From a candidate division WOR-1 bacterium RIFOXYB2_FULL_42_35 (GTDB taxonomy: Bacteria; Margulisbacteria; WOR-1; O2-12-FULL-45-9), in NCBI GenBank assembly GCA_001771545.1, contig MEUC01000002.1, positions 3,909-67,908 on the forward strand: a stretch of DNA of 64,000 nucleotides. Direction: 5' to 3'. How positions within the stretch are numbered: position 1 is the first letter of the stretch; each line of letters begins with the position of its first letter. The notes beneath the pieces were generated by a model that made no database searches, was not told the DNA's origin, and worked only from the letters and a program-made list of their open reading frames with translations. Shown here in pieces: positions 12,922-32,685 of this stretch. The position numbers and the translations under genes are program-made.

Positions 12922-12949
12922 CAAATCGCCAATATTGATTAAAAATTTG

Positions 12950-14080
12950 TCAAGCCAAAAACACTGATAGCCACATTGGCAGGTTTTCTGGTTTAATTTG
13001 ATTGGCCTGGTAAAACTTTTTTATTCTCTCTGGCAACTTCCCCTCGGCAAATAAAAACCTCAAGGGATTATTAAAAGCGATTTGTTGGCGACTACTCTCG
13101 GACAATTTATCACAAGCCCTGCAGAAATCCCCTTCTGTCCAAGTGTGGCGAGTCATTAGCCAGTCGGTACCAAAAATTATTCGCTCGGCAACAGTCTCAT
13201 CTTCCATCAACTCGGCTAAGACCTTAAAATATTGCTCTTTTGTTTTTTTCTCCAGGGCTTTTGTATGATACGAAGTATCAGCATATACATTGGCAAAGTT
13301 TTTCATCAGTTTTAATATCTGGTTAGCCCAAGAGAGAGCGTTTTCATGGTCCAATAAGGCTTCATCGCTACCAAAGTGGGCCAGATTAAGCCTTAGCTCC
13401 GGATGCTTCTTCAGAACAGGTTCCCAATTTGCTGGATGGCATAGCTCTTCGGACTGGAGAATTGCCTTATTATAAGCACCACCCTTAGAACAGTGGACTG
13501 TAATAGGGATATTTTCTGCTTCACAATAATCATAAAGATCATTCAAGGCCTTGTTAACCTCTTTACTATTATATGGGTTATCTGGGTCTGGATGATAACC
13601 AAGGGAGGGATAAAGTTTCACCCCCAGAAAACCGAGGTTTTCTAGGGCATTAACAGTTAGAGCAATTGCTCCCGGGCGGCGGGGATCAAACATAATAAAG
13701 GGCATTAGCTCGCCAGGATATTTTAGGCAGGCTTGGGAAATCTTTTCAACTTGATTCTCATAATCAATGTCGGACTTCTGCTTAGAGTAGGCAAATTCAA
13801 AATCCATCATCAAGGGGGTAGCCAAAATAATGCCTGACTCTCTCATTTCCGCAACGAATGCTTCTGCTACCCGATCAATATTTTGTCGCAGCAACCAGAG
13901 AACTTGATGGGAACGGTCATAATTGTTGCCGGGCAAAACAACAGTAGCAATTCTGGCCGCAAACGAGGTTAAATAACGACGCAACAACCACTCACGGATT
14001 GGGGCCCGGCTCTTAAAAAAACTGTCCGGCACAAATTTGAAGGTTAAAAGGTGGCAGTGAGCATTGATAAAGTCCGTCAT
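12950..14080 (-). CDS. Metal-dependent amidohydrolase-family (TIM-barrel) protein
   Basis: N-terminal FINAHCHL metal-binding motif; 376 aa. Confidence 0.55.
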   Translation of the reverse strand: MTDFINAHCHLLTFKFVPDSFFKSRAPIREWLLRRYLTSFAARIATVVLPGNNYDRSHQVLWLLRQNIDRVAEAFVAEMRESGIILATPLMMDFEFAYSKQKSDIDYENQVEKISQACLKYPGELMPFIMFDPRRPGAIALTVNALENLGFLGVKLYPSLGYHPDPDNPYNSKEVNKALNDLYDYCEAENIPITVHCSKGGAYNKAILQSEELCHPANWEPVLKKHPELRLNLAHFGSDEALLDHENALSWANQILKLMKNFANVYADTSYHTKALEKKTKEQYFKVLAELMEDETVAERIIFGTDWLMTRHTWTEGDFCRACDKLSESSRQQIAFNNPLRFLFAEGKLPERIKKFYQANQIKPENLPMWLSVFLA

Positions 14081-14103
14081 TATGCTAGTAATTTTAGCAC
14101 ATA

Positions 14104-15042
14104 CTAATTTTCTTGTGGGGTAACAAAACTTCTTCTCGATAAACGACCAAGAAAGTTAAAAACAGCAGGCAAAGATTCTTGCAATAAAGACAAAGTCTCC
14201 CTTTTGAGTTCTTGCCCAGAATGGTAAATCTCACCATCATCATAATGTGTAGCAACCTGTTGTCCTAAAATCCTAACAGAGTCTTCCAGCCTGCCCTGCA
14301 TCAGAGAGACTGTTTCAGCAACTTCCGCTAATTCATTGATTGGCACAAACAAGAAAAGCTGTGCTCTCCACAACAGATTAAGGCCTGTCTTGCCCTTATT
14401 TAACTCAACCATTCTACCAAGCAAACCAACTGCTAATAGGTCTTGGTTTCCTTGCTTAACCATGGCAAAGCCCAACTCTACAATAGTTAGTGCCCCCCGA
14501 TCTAATCCCTTGACCATAATTGGTCTAGTCACAATATTTTTTGCCTGCGCAGAAATATCCCAATATAAATGCTCCATTGCTGCCATAATGCCAAAACCTC
14601 CGCTTCGCCCTGCTCCAGCAAGCAAAGGAAATTGACTAGCCCGGACATAAGGGTGGAGACCTAAGCTCCCTGCCCAAGGCAGAGACAAACCGACTAAATA
14701 CTCTGTTCTGTCTTCTTTCACCAGGAGGCCGGTGTAAGACAGCGGCTCCCCAACCCCTACTGAATCGTTAAGAATTGGGAGATCAACGCTAACAATTGTC
14801 ACATCAAGACCTTCTTCTTTGGCTAATTCTTGGCCAGCGACGATCGCTGCCAATTCAGGATCATGAAACCTTACTTGTGAAGCATCAGTGATTGAGGGAG
14901 CTGTGACAACAATAACTCGAGTCTCACCACGAGAGGCAACGTGCAAACTTCCCTGCTTCAACAATTCAGTCTTATTGGCTTTATCTGCAGTAAAATAACC
15001 TTGTAAGACCCTGACTGTTCTATTAATAATTGGTGGTGACAT
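14104..15042 (-). CDS. Conserved hypothetical protein (312 aa)
   Basis: Long ORF with glycine-rich motif LLAGAGRSGGFGIMAAMEHL; no confident family assignment from sequence alone. Confidence 0.5.
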   Translation of the reverse strand: MSPPIINRTVRVLQGYFTADKANKTELLKQGSLHVASRGETRVIVVTAPSITDASQVRFHDPELAAIVAGQELAKEEGLDVTIVSVDLPILNDSVGVGEPLSYTGLLVKEDRTEYLVGLSLPWAGSLGLHPYVRASQFPLLAGAGRSGGFGIMAAMEHLYWDISAQAKNIVTRPIMVKGLDRGALTIVELGFAMVKQGNQDLLAVGLLGRMVELNKGKTGLNLLWRAQLFLFVPINELAEVAETVSLMQGRLEDSVRILGQQVATHYDDGEIYHSGQELKRETLSLLQESLPAVFNFLGRLSRRSFVTPQEN

Positions 15043-15356
15043 TATTTTAATTCCTTATTGGTATCTCTTGCACTTTATTATCAGTCATTGAGCAGTAATT
15101 TTCCCCGATAACACTAGCTTGCTCTACTCCTCTCCATCATCCGGCCTCTCTACTATATACATCGTGCAAAAGAGAGACAAATTTCAACTACAACAATTAT
15201 TTGCCCAAACAAAGACTTAAGCCGGAACAAGATATTATTGCTTTTGCTCAACTAATGAAACATGTTTACCAGGTAGTAACTTCCTAAGGCTTCGATCATT
15301 ACAAAAGCCTGGCTTCCCCACTTTTTTATTTTATGATATACTTTTGCTTTAAACAC

Positions 15357-16139
15357 ATGGACATAATAGTTTGTATAAAACAGGTTCCAGATACTACCGA
15401 GGTCAAGATAAACCCAGAAACCAATACTCTTGTTAGAGAGGGCGTGCCATCTATTGTTAACCCTTTTGACGAAAATGCCATTGAAGCAGCTTTAAAGCTC
15501 AAGGAACTGCATGGCGGCAAGGTCACTGCTATTACCATGGGACCACCTCAAGCAGCCGAAGCCCTAAAAACCGTGCTAGCCATGGGGGTTGATGATGTAA
15601 TCTTGGTCTCAGACCGCTCTTTTGCCGGCTCTGACACCTGGGCAACCTCATATACCTTGGCTCAAACTATTAAAAAGCTGGGTAATTATGATCTGATTAT
15701 CTGTGGAAAACAGGCTATTGATGGCGATACCGCCCAAGTTGGTCCCGGAATTGCTGAATGGCTCAAACTTCCCCAAGTTACTTTTGCAGTTAAGATTGAA
15801 GTTAATGGCAAAATCGCCAAAGTAGAAAGGTTACTGGAAGAAGTCAACGAAGTCGTTGAAACTCCCCTTCCTGCAGTTTTAACCGTTGTTAAACAGATCA
15901 ATGAACCGAGAATGCCATCCCTACGCGGCATGATGAAGGCTAAAAAAGCTGAAGTCAAAACCATGAATGCGGCGGCAATTGATGCTGACCCTAAAAATCT
16001 CGGTTTAAATGGTTCCCCCACTCAAGTAGTTAAGATTTTCACCCCTCCACCTAAGGGGGGCGGTGAAATCTTGACCGGAGAACCGAACGAAATCATCACA
16101 AAGTTGATTGAAAAGATTCAAGAGAGGAAAATCATCTAA
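15357..16139 (+). CDS. etfB: Electron transfer flavoprotein beta subunit
   Basis: MDIIVCIKQVPDTTEVKINPETNTL... Start set at MDII rather than ORF-track 15333. Confidence 0.9.
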   Translation: MDIIVCIKQVPDTTEVKINPETNTLVREGVPSIVNPFDENAIEAALKLKELHGGKVTAITMGPPQAAEALKTVLAMGVDDVILVSDRSFAGSDTWATSYTLAQTIKKLGNYDLIICGKQAIDGDTAQVGPGIAEWLKLPQVTFAVKIEVNGKIAKVERLLEEVNEVVETPLPAVLTVVKQINEPRMPSLRGMMKAKKAEVKTMNAAAIDADPKNLGLNGSPTQVVKIFTPPPKGGGEILTGEPNEIITKLIEKIQERKII

Positions 16140-17353
16140 TGGGCATCAATGTTTTATTAGATAAATGCACCGGTTGTACCCTATGTATCAAGGCTTGTCC
16201 CTTCCAAGCCATTGAAATGAAGGAAGTCGAAGGATTTCCTCGTAAAAAAGCTGTTATTGACTTAGATAAGTGCACACTTTGTAATGCTTGTGTTGCCTCT
16301 TGTAAATTCACGGCCATTGAAATTAAAGCCGAGAAAGAAACCTCAACTGATTTATTTCACTATAAAGGGGTTTGGATTTTTGCGGAACAACGCGAAGGGA
16401 AAGTTCAATCAGTTGCTTATGAGTTATTGGGCGAAGGCAAGAAACTAGCTGCTGACCTTAAAACCGATGTTTCCGCTGTCCTTTGCGGTGGAGAAAACAT
16501 TGAGGAAGAAGTTGCCAACCTATTTGCTTACGGCGCTGACAAGGTTTACCTTCTACATCATGACGAACTAAAAGATTATAAATCCCTCCCCTACACTCGG
16601 GCTGTGTCAGAATTAATAACCAAACATAAGCCGGAAGTTTTCTTACTTGGCGCAACAACTATGGGTCGAGATTTGGCCGCAAGATTAGCCATCCGTGTTG
16701 GTGCAGGGTTAACAGCTGACTGTACTGGCTTGGCAATTGATCCCGAAAAAAAAATATTGCAACAAACCCGCCCAGCCTTTGGCGGCAACATCATGGCAAC
16801 TATTATTGCCCCCAATAACCGACCACAAATGTCGACAGTGCGGCCTAAGGTTTTTAGAAAAGCGGAAAAACAAGCTGGCAGAAAGGGTGAATTGATCAAG
16901 TTTAACCCAATCCTCAACCCCGAAGACCTAGTTGTGAAGCTAATCGAGATCCTTAAAGACGAGAGTGTTAAGGTTAACCTGCAAGAAGCAGAAATTATTG
17001 TTTCTGGCGGCCGCGGGATTGGGGATGCCAAGAATTTTACCATGATTAACGAGCTGGCCAAGGTTCTTGGTGGCGCTGTTGGCGCTTCTCGTGCAACTGT
17101 AGATGCTGGCTGGATCTCTGCCCATCACCAAGTGGGACAAACAGGCAAGACTGTTGCTCCTAAGCTTTATATTGCCTGTGGTATTTCCGGCAAGATCCAA
17201 CATCTGGTTGGCATGCAGTCTTCCGATATAATAGTAGCAATCAATAAAGACGCAGACGCCCCCATCTTTAAAGTCGCCACTTATGGCATTGTTGGTGACG
17301 TCCACGAATTTGTGCCGCTGTTGACCAGGAAGCTTAAAGAAATCCGCGGTTAA
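16139..17353 (+). CDS. etfA: Electron transfer flavoprotein alpha subunit with N-terminal 2x[4Fe-4S] ferredoxin domain (FixB/CarE-like)
   Basis: N-terminus CTGCTLCIKACP...CTLCNACVASC (two CxxCxxCxxxCP motifs) followed by the EtfA body. Start overlaps the etfB stop. Confidence 0.88.
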   Translation: MGINVLLDKCTGCTLCIKACPFQAIEMKEVEGFPRKKAVIDLDKCTLCNACVASCKFTAIEIKAEKETSTDLFHYKGVWIFAEQREGKVQSVAYELLGEGKKLAADLKTDVSAVLCGGENIEEEVANLFAYGADKVYLLHHDELKDYKSLPYTRAVSELITKHKPEVFLLGATTMGRDLAARLAIRVGAGLTADCTGLAIDPEKKILQQTRPAFGGNIMATIIAPNNRPQMSTVRPKVFRKAEKQAGRKGELIKFNPILNPEDLVVKLIEILKDESVKVNLQEAEIIVSGGRGIGDAKNFTMINELAKVLGGAVGASRATVDAGWISAHHQVGQTGKTVAPKLYIACGISGKIQHLVGMQSSDIIVAINKDADAPIFKVATYGIVGDVHEFVPLLTRKLKEIRG

Positions 17354-18495
17354 GTTATAATTTCCCCGCTCCACAATCTTTCCAAAAACTCTTGCCAGGG
17401 TAAAATCAAGATATTTTCCTCTAGCCTTGGCTTAGGGACAAGGGCAACAACAATTGAGCTTTTAGTTGTATATTCCTCATTAAAAGCTTTTAAGCCGCGT
17501 AAATGTTGCGCTCCAATATTTTCTGAAGATTTAACCTCAATTGCAACTTCGTGGTCGCCCAAGATAAAATCAACTTCTAATTGCGAGGCAGTTCGCCAAT
17601 AGGCCAAATTAAAGCTTTTGGCTGAATAGTGGCTGTAAGCAATTATTTCTTGTAAAATAAAGTGCTCAAATGCCCGGCCAAAATTTTCACTGCCCTGCTT
17701 AATATTCTCGCGCTTTAATAAATAGTTGGCAACTCCAACGTCGAAAAAATAAAAACGGGGCGCTTGGATCACCCGGCGTTTGGGTCTTTTTTGGAAAGAC
17801 GGCACAAAGCGGCCAATCAGCGTATCAAGCAAGATCTGAAAATAACCTTTTACTGTCACGGCGCTGACACCGCAGTCAGCCGCCAGGTTTTGGTAATTTA
17901 CTATTCCGCCATTGCTAAAAGCCGCCGCCTCCAAAAACCTGGCAAAGGCTGGCATGTTGCGGGTAACGGCTTCGGCAGCAATTTCTTCTTTTAGATAATC
18001 AGCTATATAGGCTTGCAAAAGCAATTCTGGCTTGGCGGCTAAATAATGCCGGGGCAGCAAGCCATGATTGACCGCACGCAGCAAATCGAACTGGGGTATT
18101 TCCTTGTAAACCAAAGGAAATAATTCATAACGCAAAGCTCTTCCTCCCAGCAAGTTTGCCCCGCCGCGTTTAAGCTTGCGCGCGCTGGAACCGCATAAAA
18201 TAAATTGCATCCCCTGGTTAACAATCATCCATTGCACTTCATCAAGCAAAGCAGGGATCTTTTGCACTTCATCAATAATAACCGGATTATTGCCCGGGGG
18301 TTTAGCCAAAAGCTCTTTACGCAGTAAGCTGGGGTTGGCGGTCAAGCGGGCAAATTCATCGGAAAGCAACAAATCATATCTGGGAGAATGGGGAAAATGC
18401 GACTGCAAAAGAGTGCTTTTGCCTGTTTGTCTTGCTCCCCATAAAAAGCAAGATTCTTGGCCTAAATCAGTAAATTTTTGTTCTCTTTTATACAT
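17350..18495 (-). CDS. AAA+ ATPase with C-terminal DUF4143 (ATP-binding protein of AAA_14/DUF4143 family)
   Basis: Walker A GARQTGKSTLL near the N-terminus; 381 aa; its own TTGACA-N16-TATAAT promoter at about 18520-18553 (minus strand). Confidence 0.75.
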   Translation of the reverse strand: MYKREQKFTDLGQESCFLWGARQTGKSTLLQSHFPHSPRYDLLLSDEFARLTANPSLLRKELLAKPPGNNPVIIDEVQKIPALLDEVQWMIVNQGMQFILCGSSARKLKRGGANLLGGRALRYELFPLVYKEIPQFDLLRAVNHGLLPRHYLAAKPELLLQAYIADYLKEEIAAEAVTRNMPAFARFLEAAAFSNGGIVNYQNLAADCGVSAVTVKGYFQILLDTLIGRFVPSFQKRPKRRVIQAPRFYFFDVGVANYLLKRENIKQGSENFGRAFEHFILQEIIAYSHYSAKSFNLAYWRTASQLEVDFILGDHEVAIEVKSSENIGAQHLRGLKAFNEEYTTKSSIVVALVPKPRLEENILILPWQEFLERLWSGEIIT

Positions 18496-18623
18496 GGTTA
18501 GTCATGATAAACTAAATATGAGATTTATTATATCATGATAAACAGAATTGTCAATGGCGCGGCAAATTGTTACCTGCTTGGGCCTGTGCCGCTGTTGACC
18601 AGGAAGTTGCAGGAGATTAGGAG

Positions 18624-18842
18624 CTAATCAGGCTTTTTTGTTTCGGGTAGACCAAGCCACCTATCTACCCTTGGTCCCGTAATAGGGCTAGCCCACAAAG
18701 CTAGTAAACCCATTCCCGCTATGGTTGCAAGCGGAGCTAGAACTACAAAAAAAACAGCCGTTTTCACATTGTGCAAAAAAATTTCTCTTGGGGTGGTTGG
18801 GATCGATGGTTTTCTAGGGCTATTTACAATTGACATTGACAT
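18624..18842 (-). CDS. Small hydrophobic/membrane protein (72 aa), hypothetical
   Basis: AGGAGA RBS 7 nt upstream; one predicted TM segment AVFFVVLAPLATIAGMGLLALWA. Confidence 0.45.
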   Translation of the reverse strand: MSMSIVNSPRKPSIPTTPREIFLHNVKTAVFFVVLAPLATIAGMGLLALWASPITGPRVDRWLGLPETKKPD

Positions 18843-18873
18843 AGTTTATTTCTCCTTTGCAAACAAAATTTAG

Positions 18874-19248
18874 ATGCCGCTCTGCTTTTTGCTTCTACTC
18901 TTTGCTGAGAGCTCTGAAAAATTGACTCTCAAGCTCTCGCTCGTCAAACTTTCCTTCACCCAAATGTTTATCGTTAATACCCCCCCCCGATTTCACTTTT
19001 TCTCAAAATTCCTGAAAAATATTTTTGGGGTCATTGGTTACACCCGGGATGATCAGCCTGACCATCGGGAATGGACTAAAATCAATGCTTCCTTTTCTAT
19101 GAAGATTCGGCTCGATCAAAATAACCCTGAAGGCTGGAATGGCTTTCAAGCCCTGATTACCACTTATATGCGCTGGTATGTGCGGCCTAAACATTCGGAA
19201 GCATTGCTTAAATTCTTAAAAAAGATTCCTTGCTATGAGATTAGCTGA
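18874..19248 (+). CDS. Hypothetical protein (124 aa) containing a C9 homopolymer tract
   Basis: ORF without a clear RBS; the poly-C run 18980-18988 lies inside it. It may be a phase-variable or decayed gene. Confidence 0.3.
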   Translation: MPLCFLLLLFAESSEKLTLKLSLVKLSFTQMFIVNTPPRFHFFSKFLKNIFGVIGYTRDDQPDHREWTKINASFSMKIRLDQNNPEGWNGFQALITTYMRWYVRPKHSEALLKFLKKIPCYEIS

Positions 19249-19569
19249 AGCGCGCAAACTCCTTAAAAAGCACTATCGACACCATGAAGAGTGGACTTGT
19301 GGACAAGCTAAAATTTAGGCCACTGGATCGGACAGCAACCCCCGCTTTGACCAAAGAATAGAAATCTTTTTGGATTTAAGCCCTTATTCCGTAGATATCA
19401 AGAAAGTTGCCGCCTTACTTAAATTGTTTGATAAATTGGGAAGAAAAATTTTCTTCGGCCGCCACCTGCGGCGAAGATAAAAACTCCCAAATGTTTAGAC
19501 TTTTATCATTATCCATATTTGGATAATGGCCATAGCCAACCAGCCTAAATTTTGCTAAAATATCCTAAT

Positions 19570-20430
19570 ATGAAAACAGCCTTTGTGTTTCCCGGCCAGG
19601 GCTCGCAAACGGTCGGGATGGGTAAAGATCTGGCTGAATCTCTGCTAGATCAAGCTAACCAAATATTGGGTTTTGATCTCAAAAAGCTCTGTTTTGAAGG
19701 TCCGGAAGAAGAACTTAAGAAGACCGAGATCACTCAGCCTGCTATTCTAACTGTCAGCGTGGCTGCCTTCCAACAACTCGCAACCCGCAACCCGCAACCC
19801 GCAACAGTAGCTGGCCACAGCTTGGGAGAATACTCTGCACTAGTAGCAGCTGGAGCTATTAAGTTTGGAGATGCGGTTAAGATCGTTAACCTCCGCGGTA
19901 AGTTTATGCAAGAAGCTGTGCCAATTGGCCAAGGAGCCATGGCCGCTATTATTGGTGGGGAACGAGCTAAAATTGAAGAGGTTTGCGCTGGGATCGAGGG
20001 TGTCTGGCCAGCCAACTTTAACTCTCCTGGTCAAATCGTTATTTCCGGCCAAAAAGAGGCTGTTGAAAAGGCTTCTGCTGCTTGCAAGGATGCCGGAGCA
20101 AAAAGAGCCATCCCCTTGCCTGTTTCCGCTCCTTTTCATTGCCCACTCATGCAGCCTGCTGCTGATAAATTAAAAATGGAACTTGATAAAATTGAAGTCA
20201 AAGACGCAACTATTCCTGTTATTGCCAACGTTACAGCTGCTGCGGTAACCAGCGCTGCTGAAATTAGAGACTTATTAGTCAAACAAGTCACCTCCCCTGT
20301 TTTGTGGGAGGATTCTGTTAAGAAAATGATTGCTGATGGAGTGAGTTCGTTTGTTGAAGTTGGGCCTGGCAAGGTTTTGTCTGGGCTAATTAAAAAGATT
20401 GATAGAAACGTAGAAACTAGTAATGCGTAA
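19570..20430 (+). CDS. fabD: Malonyl-CoA:ACP transacylase
   Basis: MKTAFVFPGQGSQTVGMGKDL...AGHSLGEYSALV. Contains an in-frame (CAAC[CT]CG)4 repeat at 19774-19801. Confidence 0.93.
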   Translation: MKTAFVFPGQGSQTVGMGKDLAESLLDQANQILGFDLKKLCFEGPEEELKKTEITQPAILTVSVAAFQQLATRNPQPATVAGHSLGEYSALVAAGAIKFGDAVKIVNLRGKFMQEAVPIGQGAMAAIIGGERAKIEEVCAGIEGVWPANFNSPGQIVISGQKEAVEKASAACKDAGAKRAIPLPVSAPFHCPLMQPAADKLKMELDKIEVKDATIPVIANVTAAAVTSAAEIRDLLVKQVTSPVLWEDSVKKMIADGVSSFVEVGPGKVLSGLIKKIDRNVETSNA

Positions 20431-20492
20431 CGGGTAATGCGAATAGGGAATAATACAATTCTCATTCCCCATTACTTCATTCTCATTACTTT
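20419..20492. repeat. GTAATG-family palindromic intergenic element, copy A (overlaps fabD stop, upstream of fabG)
   Basis: AGTAATGCGTAACGGGTAATGCGAATAGGGAATAATACAATTCTCATTCCCCATTACTTCATTCTCATTAC. Confidence 0.7.
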
Positions 20493-20503
20493 AGGAGGTT
20501 ATC

Positions 20504-21235
20504 ATGAAACTTAAAGACAAAGTCGCTCTTATAACCGGATCCGCGCAAGGCATTGGTAAATCAATTGCCCAAGCCATGGCGGCCGAAGGAGCAAAGGTTG
20601 TAATTTCTGATGTTAATCTTGAGCTGGCAGAACAAACCGCCCAAGAATTTGGCCCGGATACGCTGGCCTTAAAACTCAACGTAGCAGATAACAACGAAGT
20701 TGACGCTACAATTAAACAAATCGTAGAAAAACTGGGACGCCTGGATATAGTGGTAAATAATGCCGGCATAACCAAAGACGGCTTGCTGATCCGCATGAAA
20801 AAAGAAGACTGGGACGCAGTTATCAATATTAATTTAAGTGGCGTATTTAATGTTGCCAAAGCCGCGGCTATTGTAATGATGAAACAGCGCTCCGGTAAAA
20901 TCGTTAACATTGCTTCTATAGTCGGACAAATGGGTAATTTTGGCCAGGCTAATTATTCTGCCTCCAAAGCTGGTGTAATTGGTTTTACTAAAACAGCTGC
21001 CAAAGAATTGGCCAGCCGAGGAGTAACAGTTAATGCCATTGCTCCGGGCTTTATTAAAACCGCAATGACTGATAAAATACCAAATGAGATTAAGCAAAAA
21101 ATGCTGGAGCAGATTCCTTTGGGGAAACTTGGTCTGCCGGAAGATATTGCCAAAGCAGCCGTGTTTTTAGCCAGCAGTGATGCTGACTATATTACCGGTC
21201 AAGTTCTCGCCGTTAACGGCGGGATGTACATGTGA
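20504..21235 (+). CDS. fabG: 3-oxoacyl-ACP reductase
   Basis: MKLKDKVALITGSAQGIGKSIA...; SDR motifs; GGAGG RBS. Confidence 0.93.
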   Translation: MKLKDKVALITGSAQGIGKSIAQAMAAEGAKVVISDVNLELAEQTAQEFGPDTLALKLNVADNNEVDATIKQIVEKLGRLDIVVNNAGITKDGLLIRMKKEDWDAVININLSGVFNVAKAAAIVMMKQRSGKIVNIASIVGQMGNFGQANYSASKAGVIGFTKTAAKELASRGVTVNAIAPGFIKTAMTDKIPNEIKQKMLEQIPLGKLGLPEDIAKAAVFLASSDADYITGQVLAVNGGMYM

Positions 21236-32599: not shown

Positions 32600-32685
32600 G
32601 GAGGGGTAGCAAAGCGGTCAAATGCTCCTGACTGTAAATCAGGCGACTTCGGTCTTCGGAGGTTCAAATCCTCCCCCCTCCACCA
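32600..32685 (+). tRNA. tRNA-Tyr (anticodon GTA), long variable arm, encoded CCA
   Basis: Acceptor GGAGGGG/CCCCTCC; anticodon loop cuGTAaa; T-arm GGAGG-TTCAAAT-CCTCC; discriminator A followed by CCA. Confidence 0.85.

What the first reader, a model, noticed from the sequence alone, without database searches (positions are those of the whole stretch)
17312..18596. Roughly 1.2-kb insertion at the 3' end of etfA, carrying a stand-alone AAA+ (DUF4143) ATPase and flanked by a duplicated etfA tail
The 22-nt string GTGCCGCTGTTGACCAGGAAG that encodes the last residues of EtfA (..VPLLTRKLKEIRG*) at 17312-17332 recurs at 18576-18596, followed by a diverged copy of the remaining codons (..VPLLTRKLQEIRS*, about 11 of 21 nt identical). 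Between the two copies lie only the minus-strand AAA+ ATPase gene and its own consensus promoter (TTGACA-N16-TATAAT, with two TTTATCATGA direct repeats). This is the signature of an integrative element that inserted into the 3' end of a gene and supplied a replacement gene end, here with a single cargo gene. Downstream, the two small ORFs and a C9 tract (18624-19248) also look like accessory DNA, and the whole block separates the etf genes from fabD.
Basis: seen in the sequence. Interest (0 to 1): 0.6.

Follow-up and report, generated by a model that had tools for sequence, protein, structure and literature searches.

The report
Defence-gene cassette with duplicated etfA tail
A single candidate anti-phage gene with its own promoter has been inserted right after the stop codon of the metabolic gene etfA, duplicating that gene's last 43 bases. 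Related genes in other microbes carry the same scar at other gene ends, so this very common gene family seems to spread without any recombinase of its own.

Summary
The genome is a Candidatus Saganbacteria/Margulisiibacteriota (WOR-1) bacterium. In about 18 relatives etfA is followed directly by fabD. Here 2216 bp lie between them.

The first 1274 bp hold one AAA_14+DUF4143 ATPase gene (PADLOC candidate defence gene PDC-S01, an ATPase fused to a PD-(D/E)XK nuclease), a 12/12 consensus promoter, and a second copy of the last 43 nt of etfA. The copies are identical for 22 nt. They then differ at 10 of 21 nt, mostly by synonymous codon swaps. The orphan copy's distal part resembles the host clade, whereas the functional copy's does not. 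The gene end in use was therefore probably imported with the cassette.

The pattern is general. Direct repeats of 17-105 nt flank 15 of 88 homologous cassettes at unrelated targets, against 2 of 287 control genes. They usually end at the target gene's stop codon. The insert holds no recombinase, terminal inverted repeats or conserved ends.

The closest precedent is "insertion with long target duplication", described for restriction-modification genes. I rate it a new member of that kind. How the first duplication arises is unresolved.

The parts
16139..17353 (+). etfA, the target gene. It encodes the electron-transfer flavoprotein alpha subunit with an N-terminal 2x[4Fe-4S] domain.
   Evidence: Pfam ETF, ETF_alpha and Fer4. 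It is 76-86% identical to EtfA of Saganbacteria/Margulisiibacteriota MAGs.
17311..17353 (+). Left (functional) copy of the duplicated etfA tail. It has a 22-nt core (17311-17332) identical to the right copy, then a distal 21 nt (17333-17353, KLKEIRG*) inferred to have been imported with the cassette.
   Evidence: The distal part shows no host-clade preference and is best matched by distant lineages L016 and L018 (15/18 and 14/18).
17350..18495 (-). Cargo gene: a stand-alone AAA+ ATPase with a C-terminal PD-(D/E)XK nuclease domain (AAA_14 + DUF4143). It matches the PADLOC candidate defence gene PDC-S01. Its stop overlaps the etfA stop in TTAA.
   Evidence: Pfam. PADLOC PDC-S01, E 8e-55. Walker A G20/G25/K26, Walker B D75/E76 and E307/D309/K322 are invariant (E320 nearly invariant) in 40 homologs. 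AlphaFold model pLDDT 83.8, with RuvB, Cdc6/Orc1 and TnsC-like AAA+ as best folds.
18527..18554 (-). The cassette's own promoter (TTGACA-N16-TATAAT, TG-extended). The palindrome TTATCATGATAT (18530-18541) overlaps the -10 box. A second TTATCATGA lies at about 18502-18510, near the start codon.
   Evidence: 12/12 consensus match. The palindrome TTATCATGATAA (2 or fewer mismatches) occurs upstream of 30 of 82 homologous cassettes, mostly at -36 or -27. Background expectation is 0.012 per 96 nt.
18555..18584 (-). Non-conserved 5' flank of the cassette, between the -35 box and the orphan tail copy.
   Evidence: The upstream alignment of 24 cassettes loses similarity beyond about -60.
18585..18627 (+). 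Right (orphan) copy of the etfA tail (..VPLLTRKLQEIRS*). Its distal 21 nt is inferred to be the recipient's original gene end.
   Evidence: The distal part is closer to the closest etfA clade (11.7/18) than to the other relatives (8.9/18). Tails such as TRKLQEIRG and ..RS occur naturally among 120 EtfA homologs.
18624..19569 (.). Older accessory block that separates the orphan tail from fabD. It holds orf72 (18624-18842, minus strand), whose stop overlaps the orphan tail's stop. It also holds orf124, whose likely 94-aa form runs 18964-19248 on the plus strand with a C9 tract at 18980-18988, and a pseudogene-like remnant at 19322-19447.
   Evidence: It is absent from relatives. There are no Pfam, NCBIfam or PADLOC hits. 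orf124 has only 6 relatives among 1.8 billion representatives. A tblastx remnant match goes to L111 2471-2630. No third tail copy is present.
19570..20430 (+). fabD, the gene that directly follows etfA in genomes with an empty site.
   Evidence: Pfam Acyl_transf_1 and synteny.

Best explanation
A minimal cassette sits immediately after the etfA stop codon. It consists of one gene plus its own, probably autoregulated, promoter. The gene encodes an AAA+ ATPase fused to a PD-(D/E)XK nuclease and matches PDC-S01, a candidate anti-phage defence gene. The cassette is bracketed by two copies of the last 43 nt of etfA, so etfA stays intact.

This is the pattern called 'insertion with long target duplication'. 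The cassette has no recombinase and no defined ends.

Shown:
- It is an insertion.
- The duplication is tied to the insertion.
- The same scar recurs around homologous cassettes at other gene ends.

Inferred:
- The cassette, already flanked by a duplicated tail, entered this lineage from another Saganbacteria lineage by host homologous recombination.
- The left crossover lay in or upstream of etfA. The right crossover lay inside the right-hand tail copy, the only homology available to the right of the cassette.
- As a result, the etfA end now in use (last 21 nt) is the donor's, and the orphan copy keeps the recipient's original end.

How the first duplication at a new target arises is not known.
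For: Insertion:
- Most of the close relatives have etfA followed directly by fabD.
- The repeat is exact for 22 nt and unique in the window.

Mosaic structure of the repeat:
- All 10 differences fall in the distal 21 of 43 nt (P=1.8e-4).
- Four of the six differing codons are synonymous, including multi-base swaps (CTT/TTG, CGC/AGG).
- The orphan's distal part tracks the host clade, and the functional one does not.
- Independent replicate L136: an ATPase 75% identical lies convergent on the acyl-CoA dehydrogenase gene of the same operon. Its repeat is 122 nt. All 4 differences fall in the distal 18 nt and are synonymous.
- L079 shows the same mosaic.

Generality:
- In L005 the ACAD tail is duplicated around a 67% identical ATPase, and 13 relatives show the empty site.
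- 15 of 88 cassettes have flank repeats scoring above the null maximum, against 2 of 287 control genes in the same loci (Fisher P=1.2e-8).
- The distal repeat end coincides with the target's stop codon in the window, L005, L080, L118 and L111.
- Pooled codon differences are 22 synonymous to 12 non-synonymous.

No mobility machinery:
- No mobility gene.
- No conserved element ends.
- Clusters at 90% identity sit on only 1-5 contigs, so there are no multi-copy bursts.

Cargo identity: plus PMC12988326 and PMC3424549.

Precedent: PMC2853133.
Against: - No strain-level empty site or donor allele was found. The closest EtfA is 87% identical and the closest ATPase 85%. Which tail is native therefore rests on 18-21 nt of sequence.
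- 83% of sampled cassettes show no flank repeat, including the closest homolog P0121.
- Partial gene conversion between two once-identical copies could also produce a mosaic.
- The pooled synonymous excess is only moderately significant against a model in which one copy decays freely (P about 0.006).
- The recombination route is inferred, not observed.
Confidence: 0.65

Rival explanations
1. The ATPase-nuclease mobilises its own gene. It makes staggered cuts 20-120 nt apart at gene ends. The cassette is joined in and gap filling creates the long, variable target duplication. This would make it a single-gene self-inserting element.
For: - Flank repeats are specific to these cassettes (15/88 against 2/287).
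- The protein keeps intact ATPase and D..ExK nuclease motifs.
- Its AAA+ module resembles RuvB and the transposition regulator TnsC.
- Five cassettes share the same 4-nt overlap of convergent stop codons.
- A conserved palindrome travels with the gene.
Against: - There are no conserved termini or inverted repeats. The 5' end varies from 64 to 180 nt before the ATG.
- There are no near-identical multi-copy families and only one copy in this window.
- The mosaic, synonymously diverged repeats require transfer between lineages, not fresh duplication.
- Tail duplication also surrounds an unrelated 408-aa gene in L001.
- RM genes of all types show the same scar (PMC2853133).
Confidence: 0.12
2. It is a classical integrative element. 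A site-specific recombinase, encoded elsewhere or since lost, recombined an element-borne attP that mimics the etfA tail with the chromosomal attB. The 22-nt identity would be the core.
For: - A duplicated 3' gene end with an identical core and divergent arms is the textbook attL/attR picture.
- The functional end appears to be element-derived.
Against: - No integrase, excisionase or transposase lies between or beside the repeats.
- Homologous cassettes use unrelated targets with repeats of 17-122 nt and no shared core.
- No tRNA or other RNA gene lies nearby.
- The identity runs to the proximal repeat boundary instead of lying between two divergent arms.
Confidence: 0.08
3. A circular intermediate integrated Campbell-style. 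Recombination between the two repeats would excise a circle carrying the cassette plus one tail copy. That circle would then re-integrate by a single homologous crossover into the etfA tail of another cell.
For: - Direct repeats of 22-122 nt can support excision.
- A life cycle of this kind was proposed for RM units (PMC2853133, discussion).
- L111 carries an array of four tail copies bounding cassettes.
Against: A single crossover between diverged tails should leave differences on both sides of the exchange point. In the window, L079 and L136 the copies are identical all the way to the proximal boundary. No circle junction was observed.
Confidence: 0.1
4. The repeat is a chance match or a local duplication unrelated to the ATPase gene.
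For: Short repeats are common. Several other cassettes are flanked only by low-complexity satellite repeats (L071, L059, L068).
Against: No matches occurred in 100 shuffles. Both copies end at an in-frame stop with the same reading frame. The same architecture recurs at other gene ends.
Confidence: 0.01

Closest known systems
Insertion with long target duplication of restriction-modification genes (Nobusato et al. 2000, cited as ref. 37 in Furuta, Abe & Kobayashi 2010, PMC2853133)
   Same: - A small nuclease-related gene unit lies between long direct repeats of variable length (tens to hundreds of bp) made of target sequence.
- Related genomes carry one copy of the repeat.
- There is no transposase or integrase.
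- The repeats often span a gene's start or stop codon. Examples are the 46-bp repeats overlapping 3' gene ends in H. influenzae and mcrA inserted alone.
   Different: - The cargo is an AAA+ ATPase-PD-(D/E)XK protein (PDC-S01), not an RM system.
- The cassette carries a conserved palindromic promoter or operator.
- Several repeats are mosaics whose distal parts differ by synonymous changes. This points to allele transfer between lineages, which that paper does not describe.
- The hosts are uncultured Saganbacteria and other metagenomic lineages.
PDC-S01 candidate defence gene / AAA_14-DUF4143 (COG1373) proteins
   Same: - Domain architecture and HMM matches.
- Described as an ATPase fused to a PD-(D/E)XK domain.
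- Reported as the fourth most common defence candidate in prokaryotes and subject to frequent transfer (PMC12988326).
- DUF4143 is listed as a PD-(D/E)XK family of unknown function (PMC3424549).
   Different: The papers found say nothing about how the gene inserts or about flanking duplications. Defence activity is untested both for the family and for this protein.
Integrase-driven genomic islands that insert into the 3' end of tRNA or protein genes and restore the gene end
   Same: The 3' gene end is duplicated, and the inserted DNA apparently supplies a replacement end.
   Different: No recombinase, no fixed attachment site, a single 1.2-kb gene, and repeats whose length and sequence depend on the local target.
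IS elements that create long, variable direct repeats (IS1634 of Mycoplasma mycoides; recalled from memory and referred to in PMC2853133 as 'the transposon of Mycoplasma')
   Same: Long target duplications of variable length.
   Different: Those elements encode a DDE transposase, have inverted-repeat ends and occur in many identical copies. None of these features was found here.

Membership tests
Insertion with long target duplication (Furuta 2010 criteria) | The inserted segment is flanked by direct repeats longer than typical transposon duplications (their cut-off was 30 bp) | tested here: met
   43-nt tail copies at 17311-17353 and 18585-18627, of which 22 nt are exact.
Insertion with long target duplication (Furuta 2010 criteria) | The repeat sequence is present once at an empty site in a related genome | tested here: met
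   Relatives have one etfA tail followed directly by fabD. These are only species- or genus-level relatives (87% EtfA identity or less), not strains.
Insertion with long target duplication (Furuta 2010 criteria) | No other mobility gene in the insert, and insert shorter than 20 kb | tested here: met
   Only the ATPase lies between the repeats. Pfam, NCBIfam and PADLOC find no recombinase in 17354-19569.
Insertion with long target duplication (Furuta 2010 criteria) | The insert contains restriction and modification gene homologs | tested here: not met
   The cargo is AAA_14+DUF4143 with no methyltransferase. This is why I file it as a new member of the kind and not as one of their cases.
PDC-S01 / AAA_14-DUF4143 ATPase-nuclease | AAA_14 and DUF4143 domains above Pfam's thresholds, plus a PADLOC PDC-S01 model match | tested here: met
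   AAA_14 scores 68 bits (cut-off 27). DUF4143 scores 118.9 bits (cut-off 28.1). PDC-S01 E 8e-55.
PDC-S01 / AAA_14-DUF4143 ATPase-nuclease | Intact Walker A/B and PD-(D/E)XK catalytic residues | tested here: met
   G20, G25, K26, D75, E76, E307, D309 and K322 are invariant and E320 is nearly invariant in 40 homologs. Strands 307-312 and 317-321 appear in the model.
PDC-S01 / AAA_14-DUF4143 ATPase-nuclease | Protects against phage | not testable with these tools
   Validation is reported as pending for most PDC candidates (PMC12988326).
Integrase-mediated integrative element | Encodes a tyrosine or serine recombinase | tested here: not met
   None in the insert or adjacent ORFs.
Integrase-mediated integrative element | Related elements share a conserved attachment core | tested here: not met
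   Repeats around homologous cassettes are unrelated target sequences of 17-122 nt.
DDE transposon / IS with long target duplications | Transposase gene, terminal inverted repeats and multiple identical copies | tested here: not met
   No transposase domain. No terminal inverted repeat among the 25 pairs listed. One copy in the window. The 90% identity clusters sit on 1-5 contigs.
Free-standing homing endonuclease gene | A nuclease gene copied into a cognate empty site by break repair, leaving no target duplication | tested here: not met
   A nuclease domain is present, but the insertion is flanked by a 43-nt duplication. Homologs also occupy many unrelated sites.

The most novel reading that the evidence does not exclude
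The PDC-S01 ATPase-nuclease catalyses, or at least triggers, its own insertion. Its ATP-driven nuclease would nick the two strands 20-120 nt apart at the ends of genes. The promoter-plus-gene cassette would be captured there, and fill-in would create the long target duplication. This would make one of the most abundant 'defence candidates' in prokaryotes a new class of single-gene mobile element. It would also give a mechanism for the unexplained 'insertion with long target duplication' of nuclease genes.
Probability: 0.12. Interest if true: 0.85.

Novelty: new member of a known kind. Interest (0 to 1): 0.55.

Why it matters
PDC-S01 (DUF4143 ATPase-nuclease) is reported as the fourth most common defence candidate in prokaryotes, yet nothing in the searched literature says how it moves.

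This work shows that about one in six sampled cassettes carries a long duplication of the neighbouring gene's end. It also shows that these duplications can be chimeras of donor and recipient alleles. Together these link the family to a 25-year-old unexplained insertion mode known from restriction-modification genes.

The result gives a concrete, searchable scar: promoter plus gene, bracketed by a gene-tail repeat that ends at a stop codon. That scar can be used for large-scale surveys and for experiments on how defence genes enter compact operons without breaking them.

For genome annotation, it explains orphan gene-tail fragments and assembly breaks next to these genes.

Tried and rejected
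- Closer comparators: I looked for a strain-level empty site or donor. The best EtfA is 87% identical and the best ATPase 85%. The window's own proteins are not in the 90%-clustered collection.
- Closest ATPase homolog: P0121 (85%) sits at another locus with no flank repeat.
- Third tail copy: none was found in the older accessory block.
- Other insertions at these junctions: the Fic gene in L006, the 4-5 kb blocks in L018 and L019, and the window's own ACAD/etfB insert have no tail repeats.
- Composition: GC content does not set the cassette apart from the host.
- RNA genes: no Rfam family within 15000-21000, and the window's only tRNA is far away at 32600.
- TTAA target: I considered a universal TTAA or CCGCGG target at the ATPase 3' junction. 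It appears in some cassettes (window, L005, L009, L111) but not in others (L080, L118, L079).
- Vectors: plasmid or phage carriage as the vector looks minor. 246 of 72,556 plasmids and 4 phage records hold only distant homologs.
Full report
**1. The observation**

The 21-mer GTGCCGCTGTTGACCAGGAAG occurs twice in the window, at 17312-17332 and 18586-18606. No shuffle matched, even with three mismatches allowed. With the preceding T the exact repeat is 22 nt, spaced 1274 nt apart.

Both copies continue in frame to a stop codon. The left copy reads ..VPLLTRKLKEIRG* and is the real end of etfA (16139-17353). The right copy reads ..VPLLTRKLQEIRS*. In the last 21 nt, 11 bases are identical.

Only one gene lies between them, the minus-strand ORF 17350-18495 (AAA_14 + DUF4143). 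Its stop codon overlaps the etfA stop in the tetranucleotide TTAA. Its promoter is a 12/12 match to TTGACA-N16-TATAAT with a TG extension. The two TTTATCATGA repeats are also there.

**2. It is an insertion**

The genome belongs to Candidatus Saganbacteria/Margulisiibacteriota (WOR-1), judging from the record titles. I examined 27 related loci. In about 18 of them etfA is followed by fabD within 0-30 nt, often with overlapping stop and start codons. The ancestral operon is ACAD-etfB-etfA-fabD-fabG-acpP.

In the window, 2216 bp separate etfA from fabD. The first 1274 bp are the ATPase cassette plus one tail copy. The remaining 0.94 kb is older accessory DNA:

- orf72, whose stop overlaps the stop of the orphan tail.
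- A 94-aa orphan ORF that contains the C9 tract and has only six relatives among 1.8 billion representative proteins.
- A pseudogene-like remnant.

Other lineages have different inserts at the same junction:

- A Fic-domain gene in L006.
- A distant DUF4143 ATPase abutting the etfA stop in L020, followed by an ISL3 transposase fragment.
- Blocks of 4-5.5 kb in L018 and L019.

The ACAD/etfB junction is a second hot spot, and it is also occupied in this window.

**3. The cargo**

The protein matches the PADLOC models of PDC-S01 (E 8e-55). PDC-S01 is a candidate single-gene defence system. It is described as an ATPase fused to a PD-(D/E)XK domain, reported as the fourth most common defence candidate in prokaryotes, and not yet validated (PMC12988326). 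DUF4143/COG1373 is listed as a PD-(D/E)XK family of unknown function (PMC3424549).

Across 40 homologs the Walker A residues (G20, G25, K26), the Walker B residues (D75, E76) and E307, D309 and K322 are invariant, and E320 is nearly invariant. The AlphaFold model (pLDDT 83.8) resembles RuvB, Cdc6/Orc1 and TnsC-type AAA+ proteins only in its ATPase part.

The cassette carries a portable regulatory element. The perfect palindrome TTATCATGATAA overlaps the -10 box. It is found upstream of 30 of 82 homologous cassettes, mostly at -36 or -27, against a background of 0.012 per 96 nt. A half-site often includes the start codon. I infer that it is an operator, probably for autoregulation.

**4. The duplication is a family trait, not a property of etfA**

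In L005, a WOR-1 genome, a 67% identical ATPase follows the ACAD gene. The last 31 nt of ACAD recur directly after the ATPase stop. Thirteen relatives have ACAD abutting etfB.

In L136 a 75% identical ATPase lies convergent on ACAD, with a 122-nt repeat of the ACAD tail on either side.

I then compared, for 88 cassettes, the 300 nt before the start with the 200 nt after the stop.

- 15 cassettes scored above the maximum of a mismatched-pair null (30). Their scores reached 142, with repeats of 17-105 nt.
- Only 2 of 287 control genes in the same loci did so. Fisher P = 1.2e-8.

The upstream copy ends 64-180 nt before the ATG. The downstream copy begins 0-80 nt after the stop. The sequences are unrelated between loci and are made of the local target.

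In the window, L005, L080, L118 and L111 the distal end of the repeat is the target gene's stop codon. In L079 it lies 4 nt beyond the stop. In L083 the repeat spans an overlapping stop/start pair, so both neighbouring genes stay intact. The target gene can run in the same direction as the ATPase or converge on it.

Five cassettes, including the window, share the same 4-nt overlap of convergent stop codons.

There is no recombinase, no terminal inverted repeat and no conserved end. The 90% identity clusters sit on 1-5 contigs, unlike insertion sequences.

**5. The two copies are alleles, not a decayed duplicate**

In the window, all 10 differences fall in the distal 21 of 43 nt (P = 1.8e-4). 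Four of the six differing codons are synonymous, including the multi-base swaps CTT/TTG and CGC/AGG.

L136 repeats the pattern. Its 4 differences all fall in the distal 18 of 122 nt (P = 3.5e-4), and all are synonymous (GCG/GCC, AAG/AAA, TGA/TAA). L079 does too: 21 identical nt, then 5 synonymous codon differences and 1 non-synonymous.

Pooled, there are 22 synonymous and 12 non-synonymous codon differences. This gives P = 1e-6 against random change and 0.006 against a model in which one copy decays freely.

Both window tails look like natural EtfA ends. The orphan's distal 18 nt match the closest etfA clade better (11.7/18) than other relatives (8.9/18). The functional tail's distal part shows no such preference and is best matched by distant lineages L016 and L018. 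The last 20 codons of etfA also lose their preference for the closest clade.

I therefore infer that the end of etfA now in use came in with the cassette, and that the orphan copy preserves the recipient's own end.

The simplest route is transfer of a donor segment X-Y-cassette-Y into an empty-site genome by host recombination. The right crossover would fall inside the right-hand Y, because the DNA further right differs between lineages. This predicts identity up to the proximal repeat boundary and divergence distally, as observed. A single Campbell-type crossover predicts differences on both sides, so it fits less well. These steps are inferred.

**6. Comparison with known systems**

The closest precedent is 'insertion with long target duplication'. 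It was found for restriction-modification genes in Helicobacter and later in many bacteria, for all RM types and for mcrA alone. Those cases have repeats of tens to hundreds of bp, no mobility genes, and repeats that often span a start or stop codon (PMC2853133).

The present case meets the structural criteria but has a different cargo, so I file it as a new member of that kind.

It fails the tests for an integrase-driven island (no recombinase, no shared core), for an IS element (no transposase, inverted repeats or copies) and for a homing endonuclease gene (a duplication is present).

Searches for DUF4143, COG1373 and PDC-S01 found no paper describing how this family inserts.

**7. What remains open**

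- How the first duplication at a new target arises is unknown, as it is for RM genes.
- Self-mobilisation by the ATPase-nuclease is not excluded, and I give it about 0.12. Against it are the undefined ends, the single-copy state, the allele mosaics, and a tail duplication around an unrelated 408-aa gene in L001.
- No strain-level empty site or donor was available, so the native-versus-imported assignment rests on short sequences.

**8. Verdict**

It is wrong only if read as a classical integrative element.
- Interest is moderate to high (0.55). The locus itself is an ordinary accessory-gene insertion. What matters is the general scar it exposes around a very abundant defence-candidate family, which was not described in the literature searched and connects to an old unsolved insertion mode.

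Noticed in passing
window 12922-15356: The ACAD/etfB junction of the same operon is also interrupted, by about 2.4 kb. The insert holds two minus-strand genes: an Amidohydro_2 protein (12950-14080) and a 312-aa ORF with no family match. Thirteen relatives have ACAD abutting etfB. No ACAD-tail repeat was found here.
   Followed up: partly
window 18980-18988: A C9 homopolymer lies inside the N-terminal coding part (..TPPR..) of the 94-aa form of orf124. That protein has only six relatives among 1.8 billion representatives. It could be a phase-variable tract or an assembly-prone site.
   Followed up: partly
window 19036-19074 and 19322-19447; L111 2471-2630: Two separated stretches of the accessory block match, by tblastx, a single short ORF that lies next to a HepT/MNT toxin-antitoxin pair in L111. 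The window therefore seems to hold a broken remnant of that gene.
   Followed up: partly
L111 225-257, 3639-3671, 3880-3912, 5116-5148: Four copies of the 33-nt tail of a radical-SAM gene are present, three of them with (GGCTTCT)n heptamer runs. They bound the ATPase cassette and a HepT/MNT cassette, giving an array-like arrangement that suggests repeated recombination at the same repeat.
   Followed up: partly
L009 641-2934: Two DUF4143 ATPase genes lie tail to tail. They are 74% and 49% identical to the window's protein. Their ends form a perfect 26-nt palindrome (GGGAAAATAATTTAAATTATTTTCCC) with overlapping stop codons.
   Followed up: no
L020 956-2326: A distant DUF4143 ATPase (27% identity) abuts the etfA stop in the same convergent orientation as in the window. 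It is followed by the start of an ISL3-family transposase gene. No tail repeat lies within the 200 nt available.
   Followed up: partly
L001 2769-2786 and 4037-4054: The last 18 nt of ACAD recur exactly around a 408-aa minus-strand gene with no family match. A 361-aa paralog follows. Tail duplication is therefore not restricted to DUF4143 cassettes.
   Followed up: partly
L128-L131: Contigs from several assemblies that carry the closest ATPase homolog (P0121, 85%) end within about 80-170 nt after its stop codon. This may reflect presence/absence polymorphism or a repeat at that boundary.
   Followed up: no
L071, L059, L068, L086, L078, L053 (flanks of the ATPase gene): Several cassettes are flanked on both sides by short-period satellite repeats instead of gene tails. 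Examples are CCCGAT, GGTAATC and TAAAC/TGAAAC-like units.
   Followed up: no
L045 1535-2512 (minus strand): One control gene had a strong flank repeat (score 73). It may be another repeat-flanked insertion.
   Followed up: no
window 19533-19561: A promoter-like site (TAGCCA-N17-TAAAAT with TG) lies just upstream of fabD. It could restore fab gene expression after the insertion uncoupled fabD from etfA.
   Followed up: no
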